64,000 nucleotides of DNA from Escherichia phage AV118. A program made the position numbers and the translations under genes. Location of the stretch: sequence record OR352948.1, one strand, 5' to 3'. Each line of letters starts with the position of its first letter. The first letter of the stretch is position 1. The notes under the pieces were generated by a model. The model searched no databases, was not told where the DNA came from, and was given only the letters and a program-made list of their open reading frames with translations. Shown one piece after another: positions 2,491 through 35,840 of this stretch.

Positions 2491-3816
2491 TCAAAGTGCC
2501 TCCAAGTCTTTAGTGTACTCTGTCACAACATCAGTAGACTTCCAATACTCATTTTCTTCTTTCTTAGCTTTAGCTTCTTCTGCTAGTTTACGTGCTTCAT
2601 CGGAAGTGATATGGAAGATGTTAAGACCTACCAGTTTATCGACATGTTCTTTATACATTTCGATTTGTGCGAGCTCTTCAGTCAAAGCTTTACGAGTCTT
2701 GCCCTGAATCACAATTTCGCCGTTGATAACTTTTTTGATGAAGTGTGCCTTAGCAAAAGCCAGTTTAAATGCTTTTTCAGATTCAAGGATTTTGTTGTCA
2801 ATACGTTTCTGAACGTAAGTCTTACGGACTTCAACAAAATCTTTGATTAAGTCCACTACGTTATCGTAGACAGCTAATTTACCCTTTTCATTAATCACTG
2901 TGATGTTTTGTGAACGACGTTCGATGAGACTAAAATCTTTCATGATTTTTTCATGACGTAGCTCTTCATCATCAGGAAGCGAGTACTCTTTACGGAACTT
3001 CACCTTAAACCCAAAGCCGTGTTCACCGCAATCATCTTCCCATGAGATTAGACCTTTGTCTTCCAACGGGTCAAGAACCTTACTCACATACGTTTCACGG
3101 TCGAATTTATATGGGATTTCAGTTATCTGCATTTGAGTGCGAGATGTGAACTTATATGTTCCGTGAATCTCATAGCGCCCATCAACTTCATGTACTTCAC
3201 CACGGAATTCCGGGAATTCAACTTTTGGCTTAGTGACATTTTTACCTTGAAGAGCTTGTAATACAGCCTTTTTGACTGATTTAAAACTATGAGGCAGAAT
3301 ATTTGTTGCGTAACCGGTTGCAATACCAGAGACACCATTCAAAAGAACTGTCGGAATAATAGGAAGATAGAATTTTGGTGGAATGTGTTCTTTATCTTCA
3401 TGAGCTGGAGCATATTCAGTATCTTTATATACGTTATAGAAATTTTTACTTACACGAGCAAAAATATAACGAGATGCTGCAGCTTTTTGGACTGTTCGAG
3501 AACCAAAGTTGCCTTGACCATCTAACAGTGGATAGTTGTTGTTCCATGTGTTAGCCATCAATGCACCTGCATCTTGTGCAGAAGATTCACCATGGTGATA
3601 ACCTAAATCGGCAACACCACCCGCAATTGACGCAAGTTTATGAAATTTTTCTTTATTACCACGAGCCAAATCTAACGCACGATGGACCACAAAACGTTGA
3701 ACCGGCTTAAATCCATCAATCATGTTTGGGATTGCACGGTTTTCAACGGTGTACATCGCATATGCTAAGGCTTCGTTATCAATAATACTTTTTAGATTAC
3801 GAGAATTCAATTGCAT
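2491..3816 (-). CDS. 52: DNA topoisomerase II medium subunit gp52 (GyrA-like N-terminal domain, 441 aa)
   Basis: Type IIA topoisomerase A-subunit motifs (PNMIDGFKPVQRFVVHRAL; active-site region ARVSKNFY); size matches T4 gp52. Confidence 0.9.
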   Translation of the reverse strand: MQLNSRNLKSIIDNEALAYAMYTVENRAIPNMIDGFKPVQRFVVHRALDLARGNKEKFHKLASIAGGVADLGYHHGESSAQDAGALMANTWNNNYPLLDGQGNFGSRTVQKAAASRYIFARVSKNFYNVYKDTEYAPAHEDKEHIPPKFYLPIIPTVLLNGVSGIATGYATNILPHSFKSVKKAVLQALQGKNVTKPKVEFPEFRGEVHEVDGRYEIHGTYKFTSRTQMQITEIPYKFDRETYVSKVLDPLEDKGLISWEDDCGEHGFGFKVKFRKEYSLPDDEELRHEKIMKDFSLIERRSQNITVINEKGKLAVYDNVVDLIKDFVEVRKTYVQKRIDNKILESEKAFKLAFAKAHFIKKVINGEIVIQGKTRKALTEELAQIEMYKEHVDKLVGLNIFHITSDEARKLAEEAKAKKEENEYWKSTDVVTEYTKDLEAL

Positions 3817-3820
3817 ATTT

Positions 3821-3961
3821 TCACCATATTAATGAACGAATAACCATTATAACATCTGAAATGAAAAGCACTACTTGGATTAGTCCAAACATCACACTGT
3901 AGTACAGAACCGTAAGCAACAACAAGAGCCCGAAGGCTCCTGCTAAGATTTTCTTAATCAT
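3821..3961 (-). CDS. small hydrophobic protein (46 aa), below ORF-track threshold
   Basis: ATG at 3961 shares TAATG overlap with upstream ORF; translation MIKKILAGAFGLLLLLTVLYYSVMFGLIQVVLFISDVIMVIRSLIW; contains an internal UUCG hairpin, so may be non-coding. Confidence 0.3.
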   Translation of the reverse strand: MIKKILAGAFGLLLLLTVLYYSVMFGLIQVVLFISDVIMVIRSLIW

Positions 3962-4107
3962 TACTCGCCTTTTAACACGTTAAGAAGAGCTAAGACCACT
4001 AAGGTACCTTGTGATACGGCCTGTTGAAATACTGTTGTTTCGCCTGTAACTAAAGTGTTAACGAATAAAAACGACCAACACAACAATGCAATAATCCATG
4101 CTACCAT
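3961..4107 (-). CDS. small membrane protein (48 aa), positional analogue of T4 ac/stp region
   Basis: ATG at 4107 with GAGG Shine-Dalgarno; translation MVAWIIALLCWSFLFVNTLVTGETTVFQQAVSQGTLVVLALLNVLKGE. Confidence 0.35.
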   Translation of the reverse strand: MVAWIIALLCWSFLFVNTLVTGETTVFQQAVSQGTLVVLALLNVLKGE

Positions 4108-7223: not shown

Positions 7224-9437
7224 TTATTTGGCCGCTTCCACGGCCTTCATGAATTTAACGATTTGAGCGACCTGTTCTTTGGAAAGAGTACCACGTCGTC
7301 CCATGTAGTCTGACACAATATGATAATTGGTTTCGAATTCAATAACCATTTTATCATCATTATCGTAAGCATTATCTTTAAGCTTATCGAAAATTTTAGC
7401 ACACAATTCTAACTTCTTATTCAGGTCTGTATTAGTAGCACCTGCGAATCGATTCCATCCCCAACGATTATTTACTGTTGAGAGTTTTGCAAAGTCTTTA
7501 CTGATTTCTTTGTTCTTAGAGCTAAAATACTTACTAAGGAAGTTAAGCTCTTCATTACGAGTAATATGATTCAAATAAGGCTGTGCTCTACGACTTGGTG
7601 ATACATACTCATCATAATCCACTTTATCGATTAGCGTAATATAGTCATTAATTGATTTTTCGAACAAGCATTCTACTTCACCAAGTTTACGAACTTTCTT
7701 AGCAATCTGTGGACGAACTACAGTGAACTCTTTAATACCTGACAAATCAGCAATACGGGTCAAGAAATTAGAGTCGTAGTTCAACCAACCTTTATCTGCG
7801 TCAAGACATTCAGCATTAGAACGATTACGAACTATAGCATAACCTTGGATTTCATCTGCTTCACTTGCCGGAATAAAGAGGTCTTCTGATACCCAAACAT
7901 CGTTTTCATTCTTAAAGAATCGATGAGCACTTGGCGATTTAGGACGAGGCTCATTAGTCCGTTTCTTGACTTCAATCCATGGCTTAACGATTTGTAAAAG
8001 CTCTGAAGTCTTGTACATGTTAATGTTGTCGCCATCAAAGATAACTTTAAGGCGTTCCAAAAGTTTCATTGCATCTTCGTCTGTAGGGTCAACGAATAGT
8101 ATGCTTTTACCAAAACCGCGCGGAACTTTACCAGTTAATTTAACATCGTCTTTAGACATTTCAATTGAATTAAGAGCTCGCATTAATGGAACGCGTCCCT
8201 TAACGTCGTCAATAACAATTTCAACATTTTTAATGTTAATGCCAATCAGACTGTTAATTGAAATAGTCGCCGATGAGCTACCACTTTCACGAATACGACG
8301 AAGACGAGGGGATTCAACTATATCGTATACTACGCCAAGATTACACCACTCAGGCCCCATTTTAAAACGTTTGTACAACTCAGAATAAGTTAGTTGTTCT
8401 TTAGAGTATTTCAGTGATTCAATATTAGACCCGGCCTTTTCCATGTATTTACGAGCGGTATAGCCAAGAGAATCAATTTCACGGAACACATGACGTGGGT
8501 ATTTACAATCAATCCATTTCTTAGAATCTTCAGCGAACAATTTAGCATCGATTTCTGCAACGCGTTTATGGATATTTGCTACTGTACGTTTATCAAATGA
8601 CAATGCTTCACGAGACGGGGCTACATCTAGTTCACCCATAGGGAATTTAATATAAGCTGTAGTGCATCGCGTCATCATCCATGTTTGTTCTTTAATAACA
8701 CTTCCGATTGGATATACAATACCACCATAAACAGCCATGATATTACCACGTTCACCCCATGGAGCTTCCTTGGCCAAATATACATCATCAAATTCAGGAA
8801 AGTATTTAATATCTTTAACACCACGAACTTCTGCAATATCACCTAGAGGACGCATAACATATGCAATTTCGGATGCGAACTTTTCAAAATCTTCTGGGTT
8901 AACCGGTACAACTACTTCTACACCCGTACGGTCATCAGGGCCCATCTTATCTACAAAGGTTGGCTTAATTTGTGGACCCGTGTCATCTTGGTAGATTACG
9001 TAACCACGAACTTCACCGTTGTGATAAGACGTAAGGTTAAACGTATCGGTATATGCTAATGGAGCTTTAGAACCGAGTCCGAATCCACCAATGAAATCGT
9101 TACTCGATGTTTTAGTTGAAGCAAAATATGAGTTATAAATTCCTGGCTCTTTGTCATTACCTCGAATGGTGAAATCACTCATACCCGGTCCAAAATCACG
9201 AACTACAAAACGTGGGTCTAAACGACCTGGAGCCTGAACAATAAACTTATCAGTGCAACCATTAAGAATTTGCCCATCAATACAGTTTGTGATTAATTCA
9301 CGTACACAAGCCAATTCTTTGTTTGTATAAAGGTCATTAGACAAAATCTTATAAACTTTGCTATTGCCTTGAATAGTAAATGCTGTGCTCTTACCGCCTG
9401 AACCAATAATCGTTTCTTTAGCCGTTTCGATAATCAT
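7224..9437 (-). CDS. rIIA: rIIA protein with N-terminal GHKL (Bergerat-fold) ATPase domain (737 aa)
   Basis: GHKL N-box ELITNCID and G1 box DFGPGM; size near T4 rIIA (725 aa); synteny 39-rIIA-rIIB. Confidence 0.8.
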   Translation of the reverse strand: MIIETAKETIIGSGGKSTAFTIQGNSKVYKILSNDLYTNKELACVRELITNCIDGQILNGCTDKFIVQAPGRLDPRFVVRDFGPGMSDFTIRGNDKEPGIYNSYFASTKTSSNDFIGGFGLGSKAPLAYTDTFNLTSYHNGEVRGYVIYQDDTGPQIKPTFVDKMGPDDRTGVEVVVPVNPEDFEKFASEIAYVMRPLGDIAEVRGVKDIKYFPEFDDVYLAKEAPWGERGNIMAVYGGIVYPIGSVIKEQTWMMTRCTTAYIKFPMGELDVAPSREALSFDKRTVANIHKRVAEIDAKLFAEDSKKWIDCKYPRHVFREIDSLGYTARKYMEKAGSNIESLKYSKEQLTYSELYKRFKMGPEWCNLGVVYDIVESPRLRRIRESGSSSATISINSLIGINIKNVEIVIDDVKGRVPLMRALNSIEMSKDDVKLTGKVPRGFGKSILFVDPTDEDAMKLLERLKVIFDGDNINMYKTSELLQIVKPWIEVKKRTNEPRPKSPSAHRFFKNENDVWVSEDLFIPASEADEIQGYAIVRNRSNAECLDADKGWLNYDSNFLTRIADLSGIKEFTVVRPQIAKKVRKLGEVECLFEKSINDYITLIDKVDYDEYVSPSRRAQPYLNHITRNEELNFLSKYFSSKNKEISKDFAKLSTVNNRWGWNRFAGATNTDLNKKLELCAKIFDKLKDNAYDNDDKMVIEFETNYHIVSDYMGRRGTLSKEQVAQIVKFMKAVEAAK

Positions 9438-9449: not shown

Positions 9450-9650
9450 TCACAAGTTACGTTTAAAAATTTCTGCCACTTCGAGAAGTTCTTCTTTAGT
9501 AGCTGTGTCGGTTTGTATTTTATATCGAATTTCCTTAAAGCCTTCTTTAAAGGCTTCAGCTGATTCGATATCAAAAAATCTTTGGATAAGCCGGAATTCC
9601 CGGAGCACTGCTTTATCAAAAAGTTCCAAGTCCACGTTATATGTTCTCAT
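9450..9650 (-). CDS. hypothetical protein (66 aa from ATG at 9650)
   Basis: ATG at 9650 with GAAGAG Shine-Dalgarno; the ORF-track start at 9680 lies inside the inverted-repeat arm. Confidence 0.4.
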   Translation of the reverse strand: MRTYNVDLELFDKAVLREFRLIQRFFDIESAEAFKEGFKEIRYKIQTDTATKEELLEVAEIFKRNL

Positions 9651-9670
9651 AATATTCTCTTCAGTAGATT

Positions 9671-9731
9671 CCTGAGGCACTATTACTAAAGACCATATAA
9701 TCTATCATCTTATGTGTAATAGTGCCTCAGG
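9671..9731. repeat. Perfect 16-bp inverted repeat (cctgaggcactattac / gtaatagtgcctcagg) with 29-nt loop
   Basis: Read directly; arms at 9671-9686 and 9716-9731. Confidence 0.8.
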
Positions 9732-9742: not shown

Positions 9743-10843
9743 TTACGCTGTGAAGATTTTATCCCACATCGCAACAACTGCATCTCGATTATACTTCTTC
9801 CATACTGCTTCAGCACGTTTAACTCGAGCTTCGTATGTGTCAGTGAATTCTAATACAGCTTTTGTGTAAAGCGCAACTACTTCTTTCTTAGGAGTAGAGG
9901 AATCAATTTCTACACGCACAGTATCTGGGTCGTATTCGAATGTCGCATGAGGATAATCCTTAAAAACTAACTGGATTACAGGGACACCTTTAGAGATGGC
10001 TTCAATAGAACTATTCTCTACCGTACCTGTGTCAGGACACGTATTAATAAGTGCTTTAGCTGTTTTAAGACGTTCCATGATTTCACTGTGTGGAGCATCA
10101 ATAATAACAGGATATTTAGCTGGTGGTGCCCATTTACTAGGACAGTATCCTACACCATTTTCGCCTAGTGCTTTAATCGCTTCAAGAGCAACATCAGTAC
10201 GACGCATTTTAGTGTCATAACGTTGGGCACTAATAATCAAATCAGTTGCTGGGAGAACTTCTGGCTTTTCGGTCAAACAAATAACCGGGTAGTCATCATG
10301 TTCAAATAATGGATTTTCACGCCAGTAATCATAATCAATGCTATCAGTAAGAGCTGAAGTCATATGGCAATATTTACGTTCAAATTCACGGAATGCTTTA
10401 GTAGGAGCATAGCTCTTACCACCGTATTTGTGGGTAAGAATAGTTTGTTTCCAAATTTCTACAATACCGCGAGATACAGGCTCAAATGGAGTTGCCATAA
10501 AATTTCTATGAACACTGGATAAACCGGCATCTTTAATTGCGTTAACAGTTAGTTTAGTCGGTTCCATAGTAACAACAAAATCGTATTCATGGATGCCGGC
10601 TAGTTCAACAATCTTACGAGCCATAGTATAACTCATACCTAGACTGAATTTAGTCAGATGACCAACAGGATGATGATTAACTTTCCAGTCACCAAACGTG
10701 TCATTATCAAAGCCGATATAATCAATATCAGCACCGATGGACACAAGATATTTCAACACATTTAAATGTACTGCTTCAAGGCCACCTTGTACACGGTCAG
10801 GATTAAATGGGACTGCACGAGATGGGATAAACATAACTTTCAT
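9743..10843 (-). CDS. GT-B fold glycosyltransferase (GT4-like, 366 aa); candidate DNA hydroxymethylcytosine glycosyltransferase
   Basis: N-terminal MKVMFIPSRAVPFNP..GGLE and C-terminal ENSSIEAISKGVPVI motifs typical of GT-B/GT4 enzymes; AAGG Shine-Dalgarno; sits between rIIA and 39. Confidence 0.6.
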   Translation of the reverse strand: MKVMFIPSRAVPFNPDRVQGGLEAVHLNVLKYLVSIGADIDYIGFDNDTFGDWKVNHHPVGHLTKFSLGMSYTMARKIVELAGIHEYDFVVTMEPTKLTVNAIKDAGLSSVHRNFMATPFEPVSRGIVEIWKQTILTHKYGGKSYAPTKAFREFERKYCHMTSALTDSIDYDYWRENPLFEHDDYPVICLTEKPEVLPATDLIISAQRYDTKMRRTDVALEAIKALGENGVGYCPSKWAPPAKYPVIIDAPHSEIMERLKTAKALINTCPDTGTVENSSIEAISKGVPVIQLVFKDYPHATFEYDPDTVRVEIDSSTPKKEVVALYTKAVLEFTDTYEARVKRAEAVWKKYNRDAVVAMWDKIFTA

Positions 10844-10860
10844 AATTAAGCCTTATTAAA

Positions 10861-10887
10861 ATTAAAATGAAGCTCCCGAAGGAGCTT
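10861..10887 (-). terminator. C(UUCG)G hairpin terminator overlapping stop of the HNH gene
   Basis: Plus aagctcc-cgaa-ggagctt. Confidence 0.45.
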
Positions 10888-11684
10888 AGGACATCCAACA
10901 CATTTTATAACCTTTGCAGGTTCTGTTAGGATTATTTAATGCTTTCAATATATTAGAAGACCCTATATCTAAATACTCCCTTAATTCATAAAGATAGTTA
11001 AAATCAATAGTTTCACCTGTTTTTACACTTGTGATTCTTATAGGCCTTCTTTCATATTTAGATTTATACAACTCTCTAGTCTTAGCTTTAGTTTCTTCTG
11101 ACCTAGGAGTGTATGGTTTAAATCCTTTTGTTTTAAATGTTTCCATTCTTGATTTAGTTATTTTATCCTGGTGTTCTTTTGTTTTTACAGGTGCTTTTCG
11201 CCCATTCTCCCAAGATAACTTGTTGGCCTGTATTATTTTATCTATTGCTTCTTGCGTATGAGTTTTACCATAAAATGGATTTAATTCGCCTATACGTTGT
11301 GAAGCAATATGTGACATTAATTCTCTTGTTGCTTTAGTATGTTTTTTTACCTTTAAATGGATTGCCATTTTTAGCAATCCATTCTTTCATAAATCTAGAG
11401 TGCTCTTTAGAGAATTCTTGTTTAAGCCAATCATAATCTCTAGAATTTCTAGCTCCCATGTAAAAAGCTCTAATAGCCATAAGCATAGAACGGTTCTTAT
11501 GAATTTTATAAAGCAATAAATGGGCGATAAAATGCTCTCTAGGGGTCATTTTAACTAGATTTGATTTAGCATTACTCCCACCCATAGATTTAGGCAAAAT
11601 ATGGTGAGTTTCAGTATAATTAGGAATAGTGCTGCGGTTTTTAGCCGCAGCGATAAGTTTATCATAAATTTTACGATAATTCAT
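10886..11684 (-). pseudogene. HNH homing endonuclease (HNH N-terminal domain + NUMOD3 C-terminal repeats) disrupted by +1 frameshift in an A7 run (plus-strand T-run 11342-11348)
   Basis: ORFs 11334-11684 (HNH motif ETHHILPKSMGGSN...REHFIAH) and 10886-11377 (NPFYGKTH NUMOD3 repeats) are in frames offset by 1; removing one A restores a continuous NPFKGKKHTKATREL reading; ATG at 11684 shares TAATG with gene 39 stop. Confidence 0.55.
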
Positions 11685-13522
11685 TATCCTAGCATCCAAT
11701 CTTTACGGAGTTCAGGGTCGTTACCCATGAGCATTTCAAATAGTTCTTTCCAATTTTCAGGAAGTTTAACTACGTCGTACACAGGGTTTTGAATCATTTC
11801 TTTATATTCATCCCGCTGAAGTGAGCCCAATCCCTTGATGTATCGAATACTATGCTTAGGCAGTGTATCTTTAACTTCTTCATACTCAGCTACAGTATAA
11901 AACCATTTTTGAGTTTTGCCAATTTGTGCAATAATTACAGGCGTTTTAACAAAGCGAATACGTCCTTGTTCAAACAATTCAGGCCAATTACTAAAGAAAG
12001 CAAGCAAAGCCGGATAAATACTTCCAAGGCCGTCATGATCGGCATCGGTCATAATTGCAATATTACGGTAGTTCGTATTCTCTGCCTTTTCACCAAGAAT
12101 AAGACCCGTGATAGCACAGATATCAAAGAGCTCTTTGTTCTTCATCATATCGACATATGACATACCCCAGCTATTCATCACCTTACCACGTAATGGGAAT
12201 CCGCCGTGTAGTTCACGGTCACGAACATCAATGAGATAACCAATTGCCGAATCACCTTCTGTTAAAAACAATGTCGTATCTGCATCTTTACCACATTGGT
12301 TAGCTTTAATATGCTTATGAACCTTAGCTTTAGTTGCCTTTTTAGCTGCTTTAGTTTCTGCAGCCTTTTCTGCTGCCAATTTACGAGCTAATGCGGCTTC
12401 AATTATAGGCATTAAAACTGCTTCAGAATTCAAAATATTTTTTGCCAATTTTTTTGTATCTAATTTAATATGCGTCCGAATTTCGCCATAAGGACTTGTT
12501 AAACGCTCTTTGGTTTGGGAATCAAAACGAAGGTTCTTCATTCCACGAACGAACATTAAGAGAGTGAGACATTCCTTGATGCGCGCTTTAGTCACGTCGA
12601 TTTTATATTTGCGTTTAATAGCCGGAATTAATTCTTCGCAAATGTCGTCCATCACACATTCAATGTGATGACCACCGTTTTTGGTATGGATGTTATTCAC
12701 ATAAGTTAAATGACGGAAGCCATCTGGTGACCGTCCAATGGCAATAGAGCATCCGTCTTGTTCTTGAATGATGGTCTCTTCATCAAATTGTTTAGCAAAC
12801 TTCTTAAAGTTACCTTGAATCTTTTTGCCATTAAATTTAAATTCAATACCAGGATAAACGACCGCCAATGTTTGGAGCCGGTCTATAGTAATATCTTGGT
12901 ATATTTTTTCAAATTGATTCATTTCAAAATGTGAGAAATCAGGAATAAACTCGACCTTAGTACCGTTGTTTTTAGACGGCTTAGATTTCCAAGAAATATT
13001 ATCAGCGTTATTAGAACAATTAACGGTCAATTCATTTTTACCATCTGAAGTAGTGCCAACAAAAGAGACAGAAAAAATATTTGTTAATGAAGAACCGACA
13101 CCGTTTTGTCCACCCGTAACACGTTCTTTGTCGTCACCAAAGTTGCCACCGGCTTTTGTACGTGTCCACGCCGCAACTGGTCCTGGAATTTCTTCTCCTT
13201 CAGGAGTAATAACTGTTTCTTGAGGAATACCTCGACCATTATCTTCAACAGTCACTTTATTAGAATTTAAATCAATACTAACGGAAATTTTATTAGCATA
13301 TTTGAAATTGGTTCGAATAGCTTCGTCTACTGAGTTGTCAATAATTTCATCAATTAATTTGAGAACACCTGCAACATATTTAACCTTTTTAAATTCACCG
13401 AATAGGAAACGTTCTTGTTCTTCATTGGCAACACTTCCAATATACATGCCAGGACGCTTCAAACAATGCTCTTTATCAGATAGCATTTCAATTTTATTAT
13501 CAATCATTAGATTTTCTCTCAA
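11684..13522 (-). CDS. 39: DNA topoisomerase II large subunit gp39 (GyrB-like ATPase + TOPRIM; contiguous 39+60 equivalent, 612 aa)
   Basis: GHKL ATPase and TOPRIM motifs (PGMYIG, EDNGRGIP, LTEGDSA, DADHDG). Confidence 0.9.
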   Translation of the reverse strand: MRENLMIDNKIEMLSDKEHCLKRPGMYIGSVANEEQERFLFGEFKKVKYVAGVLKLIDEIIDNSVDEAIRTNFKYANKISVSIDLNSNKVTVEDNGRGIPQETVITPEGEEIPGPVAAWTRTKAGGNFGDDKERVTGGQNGVGSSLTNIFSVSFVGTTSDGKNELTVNCSNNADNISWKSKPSKNNGTKVEFIPDFSHFEMNQFEKIYQDITIDRLQTLAVVYPGIEFKFNGKKIQGNFKKFAKQFDEETIIQEQDGCSIAIGRSPDGFRHLTYVNNIHTKNGGHHIECVMDDICEELIPAIKRKYKIDVTKARIKECLTLLMFVRGMKNLRFDSQTKERLTSPYGEIRTHIKLDTKKLAKNILNSEAVLMPIIEAALARKLAAEKAAETKAAKKATKAKVHKHIKANQCGKDADTTLFLTEGDSAIGYLIDVRDRELHGGFPLRGKVMNSWGMSYVDMMKNKELFDICAITGLILGEKAENTNYRNIAIMTDADHDGLGSIYPALLAFFSNWPELFEQGRIRFVKTPVIIAQIGKTQKWFYTVAEYEEVKDTLPKHSIRYIKGLGSLQRDEYKEMIQNPVYDVVKLPENWKELFEMLMGNDPELRKDWMLG

Positions 13523-14182
13523 ATTGCATGACTATATTTTTGTATGAACCTTCCGGAAATCCACGTTTAATGCTTTCTTTAGCAAATTTCCCAACCTTTG
13601 GTTTATCCAATTCTAACCATAATTTATATAAAGCAGATTCATATTCCCATACAGGACTTTTACGATTTTTAAGCCCACACTTTATAAGCACTTCCTTTGT
13701 ATGTTTCTTATTATAAAATGGATTGTTTTTGCCACTCATTGCTTTAGAATGTTCCGGGCGCTTAATTCCATACATCGGATTAAGATCGCCTTTCTTGATA
13801 ACGGATTGTAGTTCAATAGTTTCTTCAGAGTGATTGTGTCCATAAAATGGATTTAACTCTTTTGAAACATCCATACCAAAGCACCCATCGACTGTGGCAT
13901 AAGACATGTTGAAAAATTTTTCAGATTTAACCACATTATGCAATTTCTGGTAATACAACTCACAAAACGTCGCTTCTTCCCGTGTATCAAATTCGCCAAT
14001 AATACATGAATCAAATAAATGAGGATTATCTTTTATCTCTTTATCATAAATTTGTTTATATTTTTCGACTTTACCGTACCATGATAGTGATTGTTTGTAT
14101 GTTTATTAAGATAAGTAGACCCTATATAAAACGGTGGCAACTTATCGCCTGTGTATATTGTTAAGTATGTTATGTATTTCAT
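13500..14182 (-). pseudogene. GIY-YIG (Seg-like) homing endonuclease disrupted by -1 frameshift in an A5 run (plus-strand T-run 14061-14065)
   Basis: ATG at 14182 encodes MKYITYLTIYTGDKLPPFYIGST... (near-identical to N-terminus of intact Seg-like gene at 48570-49373) then stops after about 44 codons; downstream frame continues ...KYKQIYDKEIKDNPHLFDSC... into the NUMOD3-repeat ORF 13500-13958; restoring one A rejoins the frames. Confidence 0.55.
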
Positions 14183-19066: not shown

Positions 19067-19374
19067 CGTAAAGTCCCTGCAATTGGAATACTAACAATAC
19101 GGCCTGTGTCCAGGATTCGTTGATACAATCTTTGTGTCTCCGCATCTAGTTTAACGTGTTTCATTTCAAGCTTATTAAACCAGAACTTACGCGGAGTTTC
19201 GACCATTCTTAGAACTCCCATTTTTAAATCTGTTTTATACTGTGTTTTCAAAGTATCGAAAACTTTATCTGCAATATCCTTTCTAAAAAATACTGCAGGA
19301 CGATGCTCATCAAGTGGAACCGGGACAGTAAATCCTTCCATATCTCGATAAACTATTGCATATACATAAACCAT
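19063..19374 (-). CDS. hypothetical protein (103 aa)
   Basis: ATGA overlap with dda stop. Confidence 0.45.
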   Translation of the reverse strand: MVYVYAIVYRDMEGFTVPVPLDEHRPAVFFRKDIADKVFDTLKTQYKTDLKMGVLRMVETPRKFWFNKLEMKHVKLDAETQRLYQRILDTGRIVSIPIAGTLR

Positions 19375-19376
19375 AA

Positions 19377-20123
19377 TTAACCTTTAATCAGTTGGAATAA
19401 TGATGCGCTAAGTGGTAAGCCACGTTTCAATTTTAATTTACCAATGAAACCAATCTTTTCAAAACGTTGCAGACCTTGGATAACTTTATCATATGTATCG
19501 AAAAGCGATTCAGCGTCAGTTAATTTAGTTTTAGTTTTCCAGTCAGAGCCTTTAAGAAGAACGTTGAGTTTAGTAAGTTCATGGCCTTCTGCTTGATGTG
19601 AGCCATTAATGCGTGCTTTCAAAGCAACAATTCTAAGTTTAGACTCATTAGATAAAGGTTGATTTTTCATCATGTTCGCCATATGCTTAACACGGTTTTC
19701 ACGTTTTGCTCGGATTTTTAAAATAGTACCATAAACCTTTTTAATTTGGGCCCATTTCTTCTCGTCGAGATTAAGTTTCTCTACTTTACGAGCAGAAGGA
19801 TTAGCGATACGTCTTGCAATAGCATCACGTTTCTCAATAAGTTCTTCTAATGTTAAATCAGAACGAGCCGTGTTATATTTTTTCTTAACTGGGATAACAT
19901 TACCTTTAATGTAGCCTATATCATTATTAAAACGTTCTAAGGATAATTTCTCACCTTCAACAGAGTTATTAAAAGATTCACCTGAGTAAGCGCAGACCTT
20001 TTGATCAAGAATGTTTTTAAGGTAATTAAAGTCTAAGTTAAAATCCTTAGAGCGTCTCTTCGCAGAAGCTCTGGTGTGGTCAAGACGACGATTGATTTTG
20101 TTAATTTTATTATTTGATAACAT
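19377..20123 (-). CDS. hypothetical basic protein (248 aa); positional analogue of T4 Srd
   Basis: Size/position between dda and modA; GAGGA Shine-Dalgarno. Confidence 0.4.
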   Translation of the reverse strand: MLSNNKINKINRRLDHTRASAKRRSKDFNLDFNYLKNILDQKVCAYSGESFNNSVEGEKLSLERFNNDIGYIKGNVIPVKKKYNTARSDLTLEELIEKRDAIARRIANPSARKVEKLNLDEKKWAQIKKVYGTILKIRAKRENRVKHMANMMKNQPLSNESKLRIVALKARINGSHQAEGHELTKLNVLLKGSDWKTKTKLTDAESLFDTYDKVIQGLQRFEKIGFIGKLKLKRGLPLSASLFQLIKG

Positions 20124-20276
20124 AATATTTTCCTCTGTCTTACGGACGTTAAGGTCATTTAGCTGATAAGCTTATAATATCATGCCCTCAGGTAGTGTAC
20201 ACTCTTTTTTCGTAAAATGCTTTAATTTTTTATGTGTTATAATGGTTCTGAGTTCCATCCGGTTATTCCAATTCAG

Positions 20277-20885
20277 TCAGTAACTGACAATAGACAGATT
20301 CCAGATTGTATAACGTCCATCTTGAATAATAGAATCTACACGCAGTGTAGTCCCTATAGGGAGCATAAATTCACATTCGTCAGATATAAGTCTAGCATTA
20401 GACCGTCTTGTCGCTTCAGGGAAAGCTCCATTGAACTCACAAGATGGCGCAGCCAGAATCATGTTAAGCATATGTTCACGGAAGTTGAAAGCAAATGGTG
20501 CATCTTTGATGCAGAACATATTAAATGTTCCGTAAAAATTATACGAAGCAAAGTTACGTGCTACACCGAACACTGGACTGAAGCTCATTACTCTGTCAAA
20601 TTTAATAATACTACCAATGCCTTTATCATCAAGTGTGGCCATAGTTTTCTTAGAGATTCCACGATACATTGTCTCAGGAACAGAAGACGTCCAATTTCTA
20701 CGAACGATTGAACTTAACTCCTGTTGAATACAGTCTGGCTTGTTTTCCATACACTGCCAAAGGATGCTTTGTTCATTATCGTTGAATTGACTATCAATTT
20801 CGTACTGCAATACATCTTGATATTCGGGGTTTTGAGCACGACGAACCATTTCTTCAATTTCACACTCGTTATACGGCATAAACAT
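20277..20885 (-). CDS. modA: ADP-ribosyltransferase, ModA-like (202 aa)
   Basis: Arg (YRG) and Glu-x-Glu elements of ADP-ribosyltransferase fold; tandem with paralogue; position as T4 modA. Confidence 0.55.
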   Translation of the reverse strand: MFMPYNECEIEEMVRRAQNPEYQDVLQYEIDSQFNDNEQSILWQCMENKPDCIQQELSSIVRRNWTSSVPETMYRGISKKTMATLDDKGIGSIIKFDRVMSFSPVFGVARNFASYNFYGTFNMFCIKDAPFAFNFREHMLNMILAAPSCEFNGAFPEATRRSNARLISDECEFMLPIGTTLRVDSIIQDGRYTIWNLSIVSY

Positions 20886-31776: not shown

Positions 31777-32325
31777 TTAACGAGCCCATTTGATGATTTC
31801 TGTAATCAAATCATTACGTTCGCTTGCATTAAATCCTATAACTTTGTTAGCACCATCATGATTAAGTAATTGATACGTTTGGATTTCGTTATGAATTGCA
31901 AACTCTTCAAAATGTGAAATGACTGTATTAAAACCGAATGAAGACAAAGTAATAAGGTCGTCTTCAAAACTTTCAGTCATTTCGTTACGTGTTAAAATAA
32001 TTGTGAACACATCATGGTTTTGGCAAAGACGAATATAATCCTGTTCATAAACGTCAAGAACCGAGTCCGCATCTTGTCGAATACGTCCGTAAACCCAGTT
32101 ACTAATATATCCACGGTCTAACAGATAAATCTTAGTAGGGTCTAAATAATTCAACATCGTTTCGAAACAGCCAACTTCATTTCGAGACTTAACATCGAAA
32201 CGTCCATCAACTGTTCGTTTAGGGAAATCAATCTTTACATATCTTTCACTAATTTCCATTATGTCATTAATGAAAGTTGTTTTACCAGCATTATCCGGTC
32301 CATCTACTAAAATAATTTTAGCCAT
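31777..32325 (-). CDS. P-loop NTPase, nucleoside/nucleotide-kinase-like (182 aa), in the beta-glucosyltransferase slot
   Basis: Walker A VDGPDNAGKTT near N-terminus; TAATG coupled to upstream 299-aa gene. Confidence 0.5.
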   Translation of the reverse strand: MAKIILVDGPDNAGKTTFINDIMEISERYVKIDFPKRTVDGRFDVKSRNEVGCFETMLNYLDPTKIYLLDRGYISNWVYGRIRQDADSVLDVYEQDYIRLCQNHDVFTIILTRNEMTESFEDDLITLSSFGFNTVISHFEEFAIHNEIQTYQLLNHDGANKVIGFNASERNDLITEIIKWAR

Positions 32326-32326
32326 T

Positions 32327-33226
32327 TTATTCCTCGATTACGACATCTTCATATTTAGGTATATTATATGGTGAAGAAATTAAAGCATTAAAGTAGATGA
32401 ACTCACCAAGACCTGGATGAAATACTTCTTCAGGATTTTCGAAATATTGAATCTTCGGACGTCCTTTAAGAATTTGATAGTACTCGGTTTTAGTTGGTTT
32501 AAAAATTCGAATCAACGCTTCTTCAGGATACTTATTTCTGTCAAAGCTATTATTTGGATCTGTTATATAAAGCGGTTGACCTAATTGAATTGCGCATTCA
32601 ACAACTTGTTCAAAACGATAGCATGGGTCACTAATTCGAAATGGATGAAAAATACCATCTAGATTAATAGGAGCCAAATCACCTACAAGACGCTGCATGA
32701 TGGAAGGACGTATAACTTTCTGCGTTACGATAATCTTATTACCATCTGCACCTGCGTTAACCAGCACTTCTTTTTGACGTTCATTCAACACAGTTGTTTG
32801 GATTGAACGATTAACCGACAATATGTCGGTTTTTAAGAATTCGTCAATATAAAAACGTGGTTTATTAGGGTCTGCGGTGATATTGAAATTGAATTCTACA
32901 TCAAAAGCGCCGTCATATCCAGTGATATCTGTGATTAGAAAATCACAATCATAATAAGCAATTAATGAATCAACCACAAATTCATTTTCAGACCAGAAAT
33001 ATTTACGAGTGTTATACGCGTTATCTTTATACCATAATGGAACAAACTTAAATTCTGGAAAAAGACGTTCGCATTCTTTAATATCAGATGCATTACGTGG
33101 ATATGTAATCACATCACCCGGATTAGCACGGTGCAAATGAAGTTGGAAGTTGCCATCCTTAAGGATAGCATACTGTCCAGTTTCATAAGACCGCATACTC
33201 AAGATAGGTACGCGGAAAATAGCCAT
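32327..33226 (-). CDS. Unknown protein (299 aa) in the beta-glucosyltransferase slot; candidate hmC-modifying transferase
   Basis: Translationally coupled to gene 42 (TAATG); no motif recognised by eye. Confidence 0.4.
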   Translation of the reverse strand: MAIFRVPILSMRSYETGQYAILKDGNFQLHLHRANPGDVITYPRNASDIKECERLFPEFKFVPLWYKDNAYNTRKYFWSENEFVVDSLIAYYDCDFLITDITGYDGAFDVEFNFNITADPNKPRFYIDEFLKTDILSVNRSIQTTVLNERQKEVLVNAGADGNKIIVTQKVIRPSIMQRLVGDLAPINLDGIFHPFRISDPCYRFEQVVECAIQLGQPLYITDPNNSFDRNKYPEEALIRIFKPTKTEYYQILKGRPKIQYFENPEEVFHPGLGEFIYFNALISSPYNIPKYEDVVIEE

Positions 33227-33942
33227 TAGTCAAGGAATCCTTTAACATAATCAAAATCACGTTCAAACACATGGGCACTTACCATGGTATGAGTATAATC
33301 ACCAACTTCTACACCACATTCGTTAGCGATATAATGAAGTAATTTTCCTTGGAGATAAAAATCCAACTGCATAACAACAGCACAGTTCTGAGAACGCATA
33401 TGACAGTGGGTATAAAGCTTACCATCACGAATATAATAAGTCACTGAGTCAGTACATGGATATTCAAGCGTTTCGTCTGAATCAAGCAAAGCCTGATCAG
33501 AACTTTCTAGAATTTGGAACACAACTCTTCGGGAGTTAGGCTTCTCTTTAAGTTCTTTTAGAAGAGCTGGTAATTGAGCCGCAATGCGAGGACCATAGAA
33601 AGTGTTGAAGTTCGCCGGCAAAACATCTGATTTTGGTTTAGAAATAAATTTAGCGACATTAGGATATGCCTTAAACGCTTCTTCTGCATTGGTACCACCA
33701 GAAATCATAAACTTCCAGAAGTCTTCGGCATATTCATAAGAGATGCGGTTAATACGTGGGTCGGTCATTTTGAATGTCGATGGAGTGTCAACAACTACTG
33801 TCATAGACCCAATTTCATTACAACGTCCAATACGAGAATCAGTTACGAATTCCGGGTTTTCTAAAATTTCACGATTGACTGCTTTAAATGCGGCTTGAAA
33901 ATCTGCGGCTTTGATATATTTCATTGTGTTATGTTTTCCCAT
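33226..33942 (-). CDS. 42: dCMP hydroxymethylase gp42 (thymidylate synthase fold, 238 aa)
   Basis: Catalytic Cys in YPCTD; MRSQN...D with Asp at the position that is Asn in thymidylate synthase (cytosine-specific). Confidence 0.8.
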   Translation of the reverse strand: MGKHNTMKYIKAADFQAAFKAVNREILENPEFVTDSRIGRCNEIGSMTVVVDTPSTFKMTDPRINRISYEYAEDFWKFMISGGTNAEEAFKAYPNVAKFISKPKSDVLPANFNTFYGPRIAAQLPALLKELKEKPNSRRVVFQILESSDQALLDSDETLEYPCTDSVTYYIRDGKLYTHCHMRSQNCAVVMQLDFYLQGKLLHYIANECGVEVGDYTHTMVSAHVFERDFDYVKGFLD

Positions 33943-34221: not shown

Positions 34222-35382
34222 TCATTCCGGGTACCTCAAAGCGTCATCAGAGTTAGTTATATCAATAATAGATATAGAGTTTTCTGCTAACCCGTTTTTA
34301 GATAATTGACGTTTATAATATCTTTCACAATATGTACACGTCGTCCCGCAGATTTCATTAGCACAATCGAAATCTGGATGTCTGAACCACCTTTTTTCTA
34401 AAAAGCCATCTAACAAAGAGGTTTCAATATTTACTGTATGTGAAAACTCAGTTTCGTTTTCAAGAGTGAAAATGGTCTCTAAAGGCTTCCACAGTTCTAA
34501 CAAATTACCTTCAAACTTTTCAGAAGCGTATGCTTCAAGAACTTTCAAAATGTAGTCTGTGCTACCTGTACGTCCTGAAACTTTGAATTGAGTGATACCA
34601 ATATCATTATAAAGTTTCAAATCTTGAGGACGAACAAAACGAGTTCTCAACCAGTTAAATGGGTCTGTATCACGAGCTTTAATACAGTGCTGCATAGGAT
34701 ATCCGTTTAAGGATTTAGCATCATCAGCTGTAACATCAGTACTATGGAAAATATAGCAAGAGTCACGATAGCTACAATGTGTTGTATACCCTTTACCAGC
34801 ATTAGAACAGAACTCATTTACAAGAACTTCAAATATTATATTGTTCTTATTGCAAAACTCTGCTGCACGCTTCAGGAAAGAAACTGAACGGTTCTTATGA
34901 ATTCCACAGCAGACCTTTTTGATATTATATTGGTCATGCAAGTATTTGATTTGAGTTACAGCATCGACATGTAGAATTGTTGAAACTTCAATCTCAATGT
35001 CTTTATTGACTTCACGAACAATTTCCATAACAACAGGGTTAGCGATAGTAATACGCCATACGCCTATTGACCAAAGATACTGAACATAATCCTGAATAGC
35101 TTTCTTCTTCCACTCAACTAGTTCTCTTTTTGAACCAGGATTTATCGTGTTGAGTGTATAGTTAAAGCAAATACCTAATTCGTTACAACGTTTAACGTAA
35201 TCTTCTAACATCTTTTTGTCAACGTCAGGAAGCCTAAAATCAGGTCTGGCTGCTACAAAAGCCATTTCTCTTGTAGAGCCGTATACTTCGTTTATCAAGC
35301 TATTAGGATAAGTTTTATTGAGCTCTACGATTTTATCAAGAAGAGCTAAATCAAAATTCGTTCCAATTTTAAAAGTATTCAT
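34222..35382 (-). CDS. Cys-rich enzyme of unknown function (386 aa from ATG at 35382; ORF track GTG start 35397), possible Fe-S / U32-peptidase-like TIM-barrel protein
   Basis: C-terminal CxxxCxxC (CGTTCTYC) plus further Cys pairs; N-terminal VYGS...ARPDF...ELGI.F.YTLNT pattern reminiscent of U32 family. Confidence 0.45.
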   Translation of the reverse strand: MNTFKIGTNFDLALLDKIVELNKTYPNSLINEVYGSTREMAFVAARPDFRLPDVDKKMLEDYVKRCNELGICFNYTLNTINPGSKRELVEWKKKAIQDYVQYLWSIGVWRITIANPVVMEIVREVNKDIEIEVSTILHVDAVTQIKYLHDQYNIKKVCCGIHKNRSVSFLKRAAEFCNKNNIIFEVLVNEFCSNAGKGYTTHCSYRDSCYIFHSTDVTADDAKSLNGYPMQHCIKARDTDPFNWLRTRFVRPQDLKLYNDIGITQFKVSGRTGSTDYILKVLEAYASEKFEGNLLELWKPLETIFTLENETEFSHTVNIETSLLDGFLEKRWFRHPDFDCANEICGTTCTYCERYYKRQLSKNGLAENSISIIDITNSDDALRYPE

Positions 35383-35438
35383 TTTTTTGCATCTCACGTT
35401 AATTGATGCGATGGTTTTTGCAGGTCTTACTTAAATTA

Positions 35439-35840
35439 TTATAGATTCGGTTTATATGATTTAAATGTTTCGAATTCGCCTTTATTCATAAGAGCTTTGA
35501 ATTCGTCAGGACGCATAGCTTTGTCGTCGATAATCCAATCATATACTGGTTTATGTGTTAGCAAATTATGGTACTTCAAACCAATGTTTTCCAAGTTCTG
35601 AATCAGACTTGGGAGAATGTCAATTGCTATACGTCCAGGACCTACTGACTTCATACCGCGAGCAGTGTAAAGCGTTATGGTATGCCCTGCATCATACAGG
35701 GCATTAATGGCAGACACCATTTCGACGTCTGGTTTGAAGTTCACGTAATCACGATTGTTATTCCACTCTGTTATACAATCATCGACATCAAAACAAAGAT
35801 TAAGCATGTTTTCTACACGGTGCATTAGATTCGTTCCCAT
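35439..35840 (-). CDS. HAD-superfamily phosphatase (133 aa), KdsC-like candidate sugar-phosphate phosphatase
   Basis: HAD motif I FDVDD, motif II TARG, Lys, and DD motif (WIIDD). Confidence 0.55.
   Translation of the reverse strand: MGTNLMHRVENMLNLCFDVDDCITEWNNNRDYVNFKPDVEMVSAINALYDAGHTITLYTARGMKSVGPGRIAIDILPSLIQNLENIGLKYHNLLTHKPVYDWIIDDKAMRPDEFKALMNKGEFETFKSYKPNL

What the first reader, a model, noticed from the sequence alone, without database searches (positions are those of the whole stretch)
9743..10843. GT-B glycosyltransferase between rIIA and gene 39
A 366-aa protein with GT4-like N- and C-terminal motifs (MKVMFIPSR...GGLE; ENSSIEAISKGVPVI) sits where T4 has only rIIA.1/60/mobA. With the canonical alpha-gt and beta-gt loci lacking glucosyltransferase homologues, this is the best candidate DNA hmC glycosyltransferase, possibly using the NDP-sugar made by the 42-43 island.
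Basis: partly seen in the sequence, partly recalled or inferred. Interest (0 to 1): 0.7.

Follow-up and report, generated by a model that had tools for sequence, protein, structure and literature searches.

The report
Known phage DNA second-arabinose transferase (RB69 ORF003c)
This gene is the already-described RB69 "ORF003c" glycosyltransferase of RB69-like coliphages. It most likely adds a second arabinose onto arabinosylated 5-hydroxycytosine in phage DNA, and is not a new hydroxymethylcytosine glucosyltransferase.

Summary
The ORF is real: 9743-10843, minus strand, 366 aa, under purifying selection (dN/dS 0.04-0.13). The window is a Mosigvirus (RB69-like) genome.

**What it is.** The protein is 95% identical to RB69 ORF003c/gp3. 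It is 96% identical to the crystallised "phage HY126 glycosyltransferase", solved alone and with UDP (PDB 9IQZ/9IR0, released 2025). It was proposed as the RB69 arabinosyltransferase in 2018, so it is already known.

- **The base is not hmC.** The gene 42 homologue is 98% identical to RB69 gp48, a demonstrated 5-hydroxy-dCMP synthase, and carries that enzyme's Asn signature.
- **The beta-gt locus is not empty.** A 299-aa ORF (32327-33226) next to that synthase folds confidently as GT-B. It is found in every phage with the arabinose cluster and is the better candidate for the base-proximal transferase.
- **The target family is an add-on.** It has no copies in clusters of many other genera, including a phage reported as mono-arabinosylated. 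It has one copy in Mosigvirus (mono- plus di-arabinosyl DNA) and two tandem copies in Acinetobacter phages (tri-arabinosyl DNA).

Published in-vitro work shows that the Acinetobacter pair extends arabinose chains on RB69 DNA using UDP-arabinofuranose.

**Most likely role.** A UDP-Araf-dependent transferase that makes the beta-(1->3) Araf-Araf link. No assay of the Mosigvirus enzyme was readable here.

The parts
9743..10843 (-). Target CDS, 366 aa. GT-B glycosyltransferase and orthologue of RB69 ORF003c/gp3 and the HY126 glycosyltransferase (PDB 9IQZ/9IR0). Proposed second-arabinose (Araf-beta-1,3-Araf) DNA transferase.
   Evidence: ORF. phrog_8302 E 2e-218. 95.4% identity to RB69, 96.4% to Bas47 and 96% to the 9IQZ chain. 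Family-invariant G20, R208, R214 and E281. dN/dS 0.04-0.13.
10851..10854 (-). AAGG ribosome-binding site, 7 nt upstream of the ATG.
   Evidence: Read directly from the sequence. Identical in RB69, Bas47 and HY126.
10870..10887 (-). Conserved hairpin AAGCTCC-TTCG-GGAGCTT followed by a T-rich run, immediately upstream of the target gene. It is terminator-like or a 5' RNA structure. Its function was not tested.
   Evidence: Terminator-like hit. The same element follows the gene 39 stop codon in RB69, Bas47 and HY126, which lack the homing endonuclease.
32327..33226 (-). 299-aa GT-B glycosyltransferase (= RB69 gp46:47). Probable first, base-proximal alpha-arabinosyltransferase, at the position of T4 beta-gt.
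33226..33942 (-). Thymidylate-synthase homologue (gene 42 position). Predicted 5-hydroxy-dCMP synthase, not a dCMP hydroxymethylase.
   Evidence: PF00303. 98.3% identity to RB69 gp48 and 24.8% to T4 gp42. Asn at the ThyA-D169 position. gp48 activity is shown in PMC13326640.
31777..32325 (-). Nucleotide (dTMP-kinase-like) kinase of the cluster (= RB69 gp45).
   Evidence: Weak dTMP-kinase hits. 99.5% identity to RB69 p045.
34222..35397 (-). Peptidase-U32-family protein of the cluster (= RB69 gp50). Role unknown.
   Evidence: PF01136 E 7.5e-11. 99.2% identity to RB69 p050. At least 80% identity across enterobacterial and Shewanella phages; absent from the Acinetobacter-phage and JS10 (Dhakavirus) clusters examined, and no Acinetobacter record among its tblastn hits.
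35439..35840 (-). HAD-type sugar phosphatase (= RB69 gp51, AfhF-like).
   Evidence: TIGR01689 E 2e-13. 98.4% identity to RB69. Role as described in PMC13326640.
35825..37510 (-). Bifunctional nucleotidyltransferase plus sugar kinase (= RB69 ORF53_52c, AfhE-like). Makes UDP-arabinofuranose.
   Evidence: PF00483 at the N-terminus plus kinase-like C-terminal hits. 98-99.7% identity to RB69 p053/p052. Role as described in PMC13326640 and PMC6024577.
37692..38327 (-). SIS-domain arabinose-5-phosphate isomerase (= RB69 gp55).
   Evidence: PF01380. 96.7% identity to RB69.

Best explanation
The ORF encodes the Mosigvirus orthologue of RB69 ORF003c/gp3. It is a soluble GT-B glycosyltransferase that binds a UDP-sugar in its C-terminal domain.

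The proposed pathway has three steps:
1. The phage replaces dC with 5-hydroxy-dC, made by the thymidylate-synthase homologue at 33226-33942.
2. The 299-aa GT-B enzyme at 32327-33226 attaches the first alpha-D-arabinofuranose to the C5 oxygen.
3. This enzyme transfers a second D-arabinofuranose from phage-made UDP-Araf onto O3 of the first sugar. The product is beta-D-Araf-(1->3)-alpha-D-Araf-5-hydroxy-dC on most, but not all, cytosines.

The thicker sugar coat would broaden protection of phage DNA against restriction, glycosylase and CRISPR-type defences.

**Shown here:** orthology, synteny, fold and UDP-binding family, conserved donor-binding residues, presence of the complete arabinose cluster, and the phyletic and copy-number pattern.

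**Taken from papers:** the DNA chemistry of RB69 and NP, the gp48 activity, and the in-vitro chain extension by the Acinetobacter-phage enzymes.

**Inferred:** that this particular enzyme performs step 3, acts on DNA, and forms the beta-1,3 link.
For: **Identity**
- phrog_8302, full length, E 2e-218.
- 95.4% identity to RB69 ORF003c, 96.4% to Bas47 bas47_0105 ('putative hmC-arabinosyltransferase'), and 96% to PDB 9IQZ/9IR0 'phage HY126 glycosyltransferase (with UDP)'.
- The same gp39|GT|rIIA.1 synteny is found in every Mosigvirus locus examined.

**Donor site**
- G20, R208, R214 and E281 are invariant across the whole family down to 20% identity.
- These match the beta-phosphate and ribose contacts named for T4 alpha-gt in PMC6024577.

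**Pathway context**
- The window holds the full RB69 arabinosylation cluster at 96.7-99.7% identity.
- Its 5hodCMP-synthase signature is present.

**Accessory, chain-extending role**
- The 299-aa GT occurs in 348 phage records. These include Klebsiella, Serratia, Enterobacter, Proteus, Yersinia, Edwardsiella and Dhakavirus phages.
- The target family occurs in only 211 records, all Mosigvirus (one copy) or Acinetobacter T4-like phages (two tandem copies inside the cluster).
- Reported chemistry follows copy number. Thanatos has a single ara-GT and is mono-arabinosylated. RB69, NP and Bas46/47 are mono- plus di-arabinosylated. DLP3 is tri-arabinosylated (PMC13326640; PMC13390438; PMC12923530).
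- DLP3 gp76 plus gp77 add a further arabinose to RB69 DNA from UDP-Araf in vitro. They occupy the cluster positions of the two AbTZA1 paralogues, which are 41-42% identical to the target.
- A Bas46 'Aat' arabinosyltransferase deletion is viable but defence-sensitive (PMC13216743). Which Bas46 gene 'Aat' names could not be checked in any readable text.
Against: - No text I could read reports a direct assay of the Mosigvirus enzyme. PMC13326640 lists RB69 gp3 as a proposal only.
- The two papers most likely to hold direct data were not held, and could confirm or overturn the assignment. They are Mahler et al. 2025, Cell Host Microbe, and He et al. 2026, Nat Chem Biol, which is probably the source of 9IQZ/9IR0.
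- The DLP3 enzymes were inactive singly, and none acted on 5hoC-DNA. The order of action and any need for partner proteins are therefore unsettled.
- I equated DLP3 gp76/gp77 with the target family by cluster position in a related phage, not by their own sequences.
- Both phage GTs resemble retaining GT4 enzymes by fold. The first sugar is alpha and the second beta, made from one donor, so one of the two must invert. Which one is unknown.
- The canonical GT4 EX7E motif is not intact in the target (E276-x4-E281).
- My AF2 model of the target is poor (pLDDT 59.5).
Confidence: 0.78

Rival explanations
1. It is the primary, base-proximal arabinosyltransferase that puts the first arabinose on the modified cytosine. 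This is the 2018 Thomas et al. reading and, in essence, the first reader's. The 299-aa GT would then add the second sugar or do something else.
For: - It was the only GT detectable by profile methods in 2018 (PMC6024577).
- It has a UDP-bound crystal structure.
- No in-vitro activity has been shown for the 299-aa family on 5hoC-DNA.
Against: - More than 130 phage records carry the arabinose cluster, the 5hodCMP-synthase homologue and the 299-aa GT but have no homologue of the target.
- These include Shewanella phage Thanatos, reported as mono-arabinosylated with a single ara-GT.
- Copy number of the target family tracks the number of extra sugars.
- An arabinosyltransferase called Aat can be deleted in Bas46. 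This counts against the rival only if Aat is this gene, which I could not confirm.
Confidence: 0.1
2. It is a DNA hydroxymethylcytosine glucosyltransferase, functionally replacing T4 alpha-gt or beta-gt.
For: - GT-B fold shared with T4 alpha-gt and beta-gt.
- Location in a T4-like early region.
Against: - The phage's gene 42 homologue is the 5-hydroxy-dCMP synthase type (98.3% identical to RB69 gp48, Asn signature), so hmC should not be made.
- RB69 and NP DNA contain arabinose on 5-hydroxycytosine and no glucose or hmC.
- There is no sequence similarity to alpha-gt or beta-gt.
- The glucose-contacting histidines of alpha-gt are not conserved.
Confidence: 0.02
3. It glycosylates a non-DNA acceptor, such as a nucleotide, a phage or host protein, or a cell-envelope component. 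Its link to DNA arabinosylation would be indirect.
For: - Its closest structural relatives act on lipids and small molecules (PimA, BshA, MshA).
- In Mosigvirus the gene lies 21 kb from the arabinose cluster.
- PMC13326640 could not tell whether the first transfer happens on nucleotide or DNA.
Against: - In Acinetobacter phages both paralogues sit inside the arabinosylation cluster.
- The enzymes at those positions in DLP3 extend arabinose chains on DNA in vitro.
- The family is found only in phages that carry the cluster.
Confidence: 0.05

Closest known systems
RB69 ORF003c / gp3 and the phage HY126 glycosyltransferase (PDB 9IQZ apo, 9IR0 with UDP); bas47_0105 in phage Bas47
   Same: Orthologues. 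All are 366 aa, 95-96% identical and free of indels. They share the gp39|GT|rIIA.1 position, the upstream hairpin and RBS, and the accompanying arabinosylation cluster.
   Different: There are 13-17 substitutions, almost all in residues 101-191. In this window an HNH homing-endonuclease gene is inserted between gene 39 and the GT.
Acinetobacter phage tandem pair (AbTZA1 gp019/gp020; by position DLP3 gp77/gp76, 'beta-arabinosyltransferase 2/3')
   Same: Same protein family: 41-42% identity over the full length, with the same invariant donor-site residues. The DLP3 pair extends arabinose chains on DNA with UDP-Araf in vitro.
   Different: There are two copies, encoded inside the cluster next to the first GT and the kinase. 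They yield a tri-arabinosyl product and need each other in vitro. The Mosigvirus gene is single and displaced 21 kb to the rIIA-39 junction.
T2/T6 beta-glucosyl-HMC-alpha-glucosyltransferase (ba-gt, makes gentiobiosyl-hmC)
   Same: Works alike in concept. It is a second, accessory phage transferase that adds a sugar onto the first sugar already on the modified cytosine in DNA, giving a disaccharide on a fraction of sites (PMC6024577).
   Different: Different sugar (glucose from host UDP-Glc), linkage and base (hmC). Homology to the target was not tested here.
T4 alpha-glucosyltransferase (GT72, 1XV5/1Y6F) and beta-glucosyltransferase (GT63)
   Same: GT-B fold, UDP-sugar donor and DNA acceptor. 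The Gly/Arg/Glu donor contacts are conserved according to PMC6024577.
   Different: No detectable sequence similarity. The genomic locus differs. These enzymes act on the base hydroxymethyl group, not on a sugar, and the glucose-binding histidines are absent.
Bacterial GT4-type GT-B enzymes (PimA 2GEJ/4N9W, BshA 3MBO, MshA 3C4Q)
   Same: Best non-phage structural matches: Foldseek E about 1e-8, probability 1.0. The R-x5-R/K phosphate-binding pair and the C-terminal Glu are shared.
   Different: 10-16% identity. No Pfam GT4/GT1 model reaches threshold. The EX7E motif is altered to E-x4-E. The acceptor is a DNA-borne sugar.

Membership tests
RB69 ORF003c / HY126 GT family (phrog_8302; 'Aat'-type arabinosyl-arabinose transferases) | Full-length, high-identity match to the founding members | tested here: met
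   phrog_8302 residues 1-366 of 366, E 2e-218. 95.4% identity to RB69, 96% to the 9IQZ chain, 96.4% to Bas47.
RB69 ORF003c / HY126 GT family (phrog_8302; 'Aat'-type arabinosyl-arabinose transferases) | Conserved synteny: gene 39 | GT | rIIA.1 | rIIA | tested here: met
   Here an HNH homing endonuclease lies between gene 39 and the GT.
RB69 ORF003c / HY126 GT family (phrog_8302; 'Aat'-type arabinosyl-arabinose transferases) | Co-occurrence with the arabinosylation cluster (5hodCMP synthase, first GT, UDP-Araf genes) | tested here: met
   All are present in the window at 31777-38327, 96.7-99.7% identical to RB69. Every locus with a target homologue that extends far enough carries the cluster.
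RB69 ORF003c / HY126 GT family (phrog_8302; 'Aat'-type arabinosyl-arabinose transferases) | Invariant donor-site residues (Gly20, Arg208, Glu281) | tested here: met
   Invariant in the 14-sequence family alignment. Functional equivalence is stated in PMC6024577.
RB69 ORF003c / HY126 GT family (phrog_8302; 'Aat'-type arabinosyl-arabinose transferases) | Transfer of arabinofuranose from UDP-Araf onto arabinosylated 5-hydroxycytosine in DNA | not testable with these tools
   Only indirect support: the in-vitro result for DLP3 gp76+gp77 and the copy-number versus sugar-number correlation.
GT-B fold, GT4-like glycosyltransferases | Two Rossmann-like domains with a nucleotide-sugar site in the C-terminal domain | tested here: met
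   A 96%-identical protein was crystallised with UDP (9IR0). Foldseek of my low-confidence model still gives PimA, BshA and MshA at E 1e-8 to 1e-6.
GT-B fold, GT4-like glycosyltransferases | Match to Pfam GT4/GT1 profiles (PF13439, PF00534, PF13692) | tested here: not met
   No Pfam or NCBIfam hit for the window protein even at E 10. Only sub-threshold hits in one or two distant family members.
GT-B fold, GT4-like glycosyltransferases | Canonical EX7E motif | tested here: not met
   The sequence reads T-G273-T-V-E276-N-S-S-I-E281-A. The second Glu is invariant. The position 8 residues upstream is Gly, and a near-invariant Glu sits at -5 instead.
T4 alpha-glucosyltransferase (GT72) | Sequence homology to T4 a-gt and location after gene 47 | tested here: not met
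   BLASTP gives nothing below E 1 and hhalign probability is 0.2%. The locus after gene 47 holds a GIY-YIG-like ORF. Only fold-level relatedness is known, from PMC6024577 HHpred.
T4 beta-glucosyltransferase (GT63) | Sequence homology to T4 b-gt and location between gene 42 and uvsX | tested here: not met
   hhalign probability 0.2% and no BLASTP hit. That locus is occupied by the unrelated 299-aa GT-B.
T2/T6 ba-gt (second-sugar glucosyltransferase) | Sequence homology to T2/T6 ba-gt | not tested
   No ba-gt sequence was fetched. The resemblance is functional only.

The most novel reading that the evidence does not exclude
Residues 101-191 form a hypervariable central segment. In this phage lineage (AV109/AV114-AV116-like) it carries 10-14 substitutions relative to RB69, HY126 and Bas47. 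This segment could be the acceptor- or DNA-facing surface, and its variation could tune which cytosines receive the second arabinose, or the linkage made, under pressure from modification-dependent host defences. Separately, the first sugar is alpha and the second beta, made from one UDP-Araf donor. This GT4-like enzyme may therefore be an inverting transferase on a scaffold usually associated with retention.
Probability: 0.1. Interest if true: 0.45.

Novelty: already known. Interest (0 to 1): 0.12.

Why it matters
Sugar coats on phage DNA decide which restriction, glycosylase and CRISPR defences a phage escapes. They also affect how well therapeutic phages can be sequenced or engineered. This gene is part of the recently revised RB69-type pathway: arabinose on 5-hydroxycytosine, in one to three units. 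For this window it adds another orthologue, and it corrects the annotation in three ways: the base is not hmC, the gene is not a glucosyltransferase, and it is not the only glycosyltransferase. The one open point is that no assay of the Mosigvirus enzyme's step and stereochemistry was readable here.

Tried and rejected
- **Pfam and NCBIfam scans of the target:** no hit, even at E 10.
- **hhalign of the family profile against T4 alpha-gt, T4 beta-gt and the 299-aa GT family:** no signal. The only aligned patch is the C-terminal Glu motif.
- **AlphaFold of the target:** the homologue set is very shallow (5 clusters at 90% identity, 11 representatives at 50% among 1.84 billion proteins). The model was poor (pLDDT 59.5), and I used it only to retrieve 9IQZ/9IR0 and GT-B neighbours.
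- **IMG/VR and metagenome scans for distant relatives in new genomic contexts:** only Mosigvirus and known Acinetobacter phages came back.
- **Attempts to read Mahler et al. 2025 and He et al. 2026:** neither paper is held.
- **Text searches for the PDB codes and for HY126:** nothing useful.
- **Rejected: alpha-gt or beta-gt orthologue.** No sequence similarity and the wrong locus.
- **Rejected: hmC acceptor.** The synthase is the 5-hydroxy type.
- **Promoter scan around the gene:** fewer sigma-70-like sites than in shuffled sequence, so it was not informative.
Full report
**Observation.** The ORF exists exactly as described. It runs 9743..10843 on the minus strand, starts with ATG, encodes 366 aa and contains the quoted N- and C-terminal strings. 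An AAGG ribosome-binding site lies 7 nt upstream. It lies between gene 39 (11684-13522, a fused 39+60 type of 612 aa) and rIIA.1/rIIA (9450-9680; 7224-9437). T4 has rIIA.1, 60, 60.1 and mobA in that interval. In this window an HNH/NUMOD3 homing-endonuclease gene separates it from gene 39. Pairwise dN/dS against four orthologues is 0.04-0.13, so the gene is under purifying selection.

**What the window is.** Megablast places the region in Mosigvirus, the RB69-like coliphages. It is 99.6% identical to phages AV109 and AV114-AV116 and 93-95% identical to about 150 others. Phage Bas47 (AlbertHofmann) annotates the orthologue as 'putative hmC-arabinosyltransferase'.

**Identity of the protein.**
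- No Pfam or NCBIfam model hits it.
- It matches phrog_8302 end to end, E 2e-218.
- It is 95.4% identical to RB69 ORF003c, 96.4% to the Bas47 protein and 95.4% to the HY126 protein.
- A search of PDB sequences finds one match, 96% identical over all 366 residues. Foldseek labels the entries 9IQZ 'phage HY126 glycosyltransferase' and 9IR0 'with UDP', both released 2025-07-16.
- In HY126 that gene sits in the same gp39|GT|rIIA.1 position.
- My own AlphaFold model was poor (pLDDT 59.5) because the family is tiny. It still retrieved 9IR0/9IQZ first, followed by GT4-type GT-B enzymes PimA, BshA and MshA at E 1e-8 to 1e-6.
- BLASTP and profile comparison show no similarity to T4 alpha-gt or beta-gt.
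- Across a 14-member family alignment reaching down to 20% identity, G20, R208, R214 and E281 are invariant. Thomas et al. equated the corresponding residues with the beta-phosphate and ribose contacts of T4 alpha-gt (PMC6024577).
- The canonical GT4 EX7E motif is not intact. It reads E276-x4-E281, with Gly at the -8 position.

**What the literature says.**
- Thomas et al. 2018 found arabinose in RB69 DNA and proposed ORF003c, by HMM and HHpred, as the arabinosyl-hmC transferase (PMC6024577).
- Lee et al. 2026 revised the chemistry. RB69 DNA carries alpha-D-Araf, and beta-D-Araf-(1->3)-alpha-D-Araf, linked by an ether bond to 5-hydroxycytosine, not hmC. The thymidylate-synthase homologue gp48 makes 5-hydroxy-dCMP.
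- The same paper proposes gp46:47 as the first arabinosyltransferase and gp3 as 'beta-arabinosyltransferase 2'.
- The only enzymology is on the Acinetobacter phage DLP3. Its gp76 and gp77 together add a third arabinose to RB69 DNA from UDP-Araf. Single enzymes, and 5hoC-DNA as acceptor, gave nothing (PMC13326640).
- Bas46 and Bas47 are cited as doubly arabinosylated (PMC12923530).
- A Bas46 deletion of an arabinosyltransferase called Aat is cited as viable but defence-sensitive (PMC13216743).
- From memory only, Mahler et al. define Aat as arabinose-5ara-hC transferases that add second or third arabinoses. That paper and He et al. 2026 on HY126 are not held.

1. *The base.* The window's gene 42 homologue (33226-33942) is 98.3% identical to RB69 gp48 and only 24.8% to T4 gp42. 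It has Asn where E. coli ThyA has D169 (the ThyA sequence was supplied from memory). Lee et al. give this as the signature of 5hodCMP synthases. hmC is therefore not expected in this phage.
3. *The sugar island.* The kinase, U32 protein, HAD phosphatase, nucleotidyltransferase-kinase and SIS isomerase at 31777-38327 are all present, at 96.7-99.7% identity to RB69.

**Which transferase does which step.** The distribution of the two families across phages points to the answer.

| Group | 299-aa GT | Target-family copies | Reported DNA chemistry |
|---|---|---|---|
| Shewanella phage Thanatos | stated single ara-GT | 0 | mono-arabinosyl |
| Klebsiella, Serratia, Enterobacter, Proteus, Yersinia, Edwardsiella, Dhakavirus phages | present | 0 | not reported in what I read |
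| Mosigvirus (RB69, NP, Bas46/47) | present | 1, at gp39/rIIA.1 | mono- plus di-arabinosyl |
| Acinetobacter T4-like phages (DLP3 type) | present | 2 tandem, inside the cluster | tri-arabinosyl (DLP3) |

- tblastn against 50,697 phage records finds the 299-aa GT in 348 records and the target family in only 211.
- No Shewanella record is among the target hits.
- JS10 (Dhakavirus) has a minimal cluster with neither the target homologue nor the U32 protein.
- In four Acinetobacter-type loci the two paralogues (41-42% identical to the target) lie inside the cluster. The order is SIS, NTP-transferase/kinase, HAD, TS homologue, first GT, kinase, GT, GT, gp40/41. These are the positions of DLP3 gp77 and gp76.
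- The target family behaves as a chain-extension module, and the 299-aa GT as the universal first transferase.
- Searches of 5.8 billion clustered proteins, 1.84 billion representatives, IMG/VR and JGI metagenomes found no members outside these two phage groups.

**Mechanism and confidence.** Most likely (about 0.78), the enzyme uses phage-made UDP-arabinofuranose to add the second, beta-(1->3)-linked arabinofuranose onto the first arabinose already on 5-hydroxycytosine in DNA.
- Shown here: orthology, fold and UDP-binding family, donor-site conservation, pathway context and the phyletic pattern.
- Taken from papers: the DNA chemistry and the DLP3 enzymology.
- Inferred: the assignment of this step, DNA as acceptor, and the linkage for this protein.
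- Open: whether the enzyme inverts or retains (the first sugar is alpha and the second beta from a single donor, so one of the two GTs must invert), whether it needs a partner, and what the two unread papers show.

**Rivals.**
- Primary base-proximal transferase: about 0.1.
- Non-DNA acceptor: about 0.05.
- hmC glucosyltransferase: about 0.02.

**Verdict.** Novelty: already known. Interest is low.

**Side observations.**
- *U32 protein.* The peptidase-U32-family protein of the cluster (34222-35397) is far more conserved than its neighbours. It is at least 80% identical across Escherichia, Klebsiella, Serratia, Proteus, Yersinia and Shewanella phages, where the first GT is only 39-72% identical.
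  - It is missing from the Acinetobacter-phage and JS10 (Dhakavirus) clusters.
  - U32-family proteins RlhA, TrhP and UbiU/V are O2-independent hydroxylases. RlhA is required for 5-hydroxycytidine in 23S rRNA (PMC5727448, PMC6599085, PMC10990095).
  - The phage's 5hodCMP synthase takes its oxygen from O2.
  - A speculative reading is that the U32 protein is an anaerobic back-up cytosine hydroxylase. The absence from JS10 weakens it, and it was not tested further.
- *Other items.* A frameshifted homing endonuclease, a divergent gene 39, a mosaic central segment in the target, and conserved hairpins flanking the gene.

Noticed in passing
window 34222-35397 (-): The peptidase-U32-family protein of the arabinose cluster (= RB69 gp50) is at least 80% identical across phages of Escherichia, Klebsiella, Serratia, Proteus, Yersinia and Shewanella. 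The neighbouring first GT is only 39-72% identical across the same phages. The U32 protein is absent from the Acinetobacter-phage and JS10 (Dhakavirus) clusters.

It has a four-Cys group at 197-238 and a C-terminal CX4CX3CX2C motif. U32 relatives RlhA, TrhP and UbiU/V are O2-independent hydroxylases, and RlhA is needed for 5-hydroxycytidine in rRNA. The phage's TS-like 5hodCMP synthase uses O2.

A possible reading is that this protein is an anaerobic back-up cytosine C5-hydroxylase. This is speculative, and the JS10 (Dhakavirus) absence is a counter-example to a simple link with host physiology.
   Followed up: partly
window 10886-11699 (-): The HNH/NUMOD3 homing-endonuclease gene between gene 39 and the target is split into two ORFs (10886-11377, 11334-11699). 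The cause is one extra base in a homopolymer: T7 on the plus strand near 11337-11343, against T6 in phage AV116, where it is a single 265-aa ORF. The two sequences are otherwise 876/877 identical. It is either a pseudogene or a sequencing error. RB69, Bas47 and HY126 lack this gene.
   Followed up: yes
window 11684-13522 (-) and 10886-10900: Gene 39 is only 78-81% identical to other Mosigvirus gene 39 proteins, while flanking genes are 92-99% identical. Its C-terminus differs. The homing-endonuclease ORF ends with the same ...WMS-stop codons and hairpin that terminate gene 39 in endonuclease-free phages. This looks like an endonuclease-associated replacement or co-conversion tract. A second NUMOD3 ORF lies just upstream of gene 39 at 13500-13958.
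   Followed up: partly
window ~10213-10573 (codons 91-210 of the target): Divergence between this lineage and RB69, HY126 and Bas47 is concentrated in nt 270-630 of the gene. There are 13-19 differences per 90 nt there, against 0-4 in most other bins (up to 10). Ten to fourteen of the 13-17 amino-acid changes fall in residues 101-191. Both synonymous and non-synonymous sites differ, so this is a mosaic or hypervariable segment. It overlaps the part AlphaFold could not model, residues 116-188.
   Followed up: partly
window 10870-10887 (-) and 9669-9727 (-): A GC-rich hairpin plus T-run sits directly upstream of the target's RBS and is conserved in RB69, Bas47 and HY126. A long inverted repeat (CCTGAGGCACTAT ... 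ATAGTGCCTCAGG) lies between the target stop codon and the rIIA.1 start. The distal arm is degenerate in RB69.
   Followed up: partly
window 48570-49442 (-) and 43818-44717 (-): At the T4 alpha-gt position, after gene 47, there is a 290-aa ORF with only a weak GIY-YIG match (E 0.005). After gene 45 there is a 299-aa TTG-start ORF with no Pfam hit, where T4 has rpbA and 45.2. Both are probably mobile-endonuclease-type insertions. Neither was examined further.
   Followed up: no
L005 (HY126, PP658200.1) 3001-4101: The GenBank HY126 translation differs from the deposited 9IQZ chain, and from every family member, at two family-invariant residues (P288L, V289G). This suggests an error in one of the records.
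   Followed up: no
L002 (AV116, OR352946.1) 19229-20281: The closest relative by DNA identity, AV116, retains only about 265 residues of rIIA and has no rIIB between denB and rIIA. It therefore looks like an rII deletion. The window has intact rIIA (737 aa) and rIIB (308 aa).
   Followed up: no
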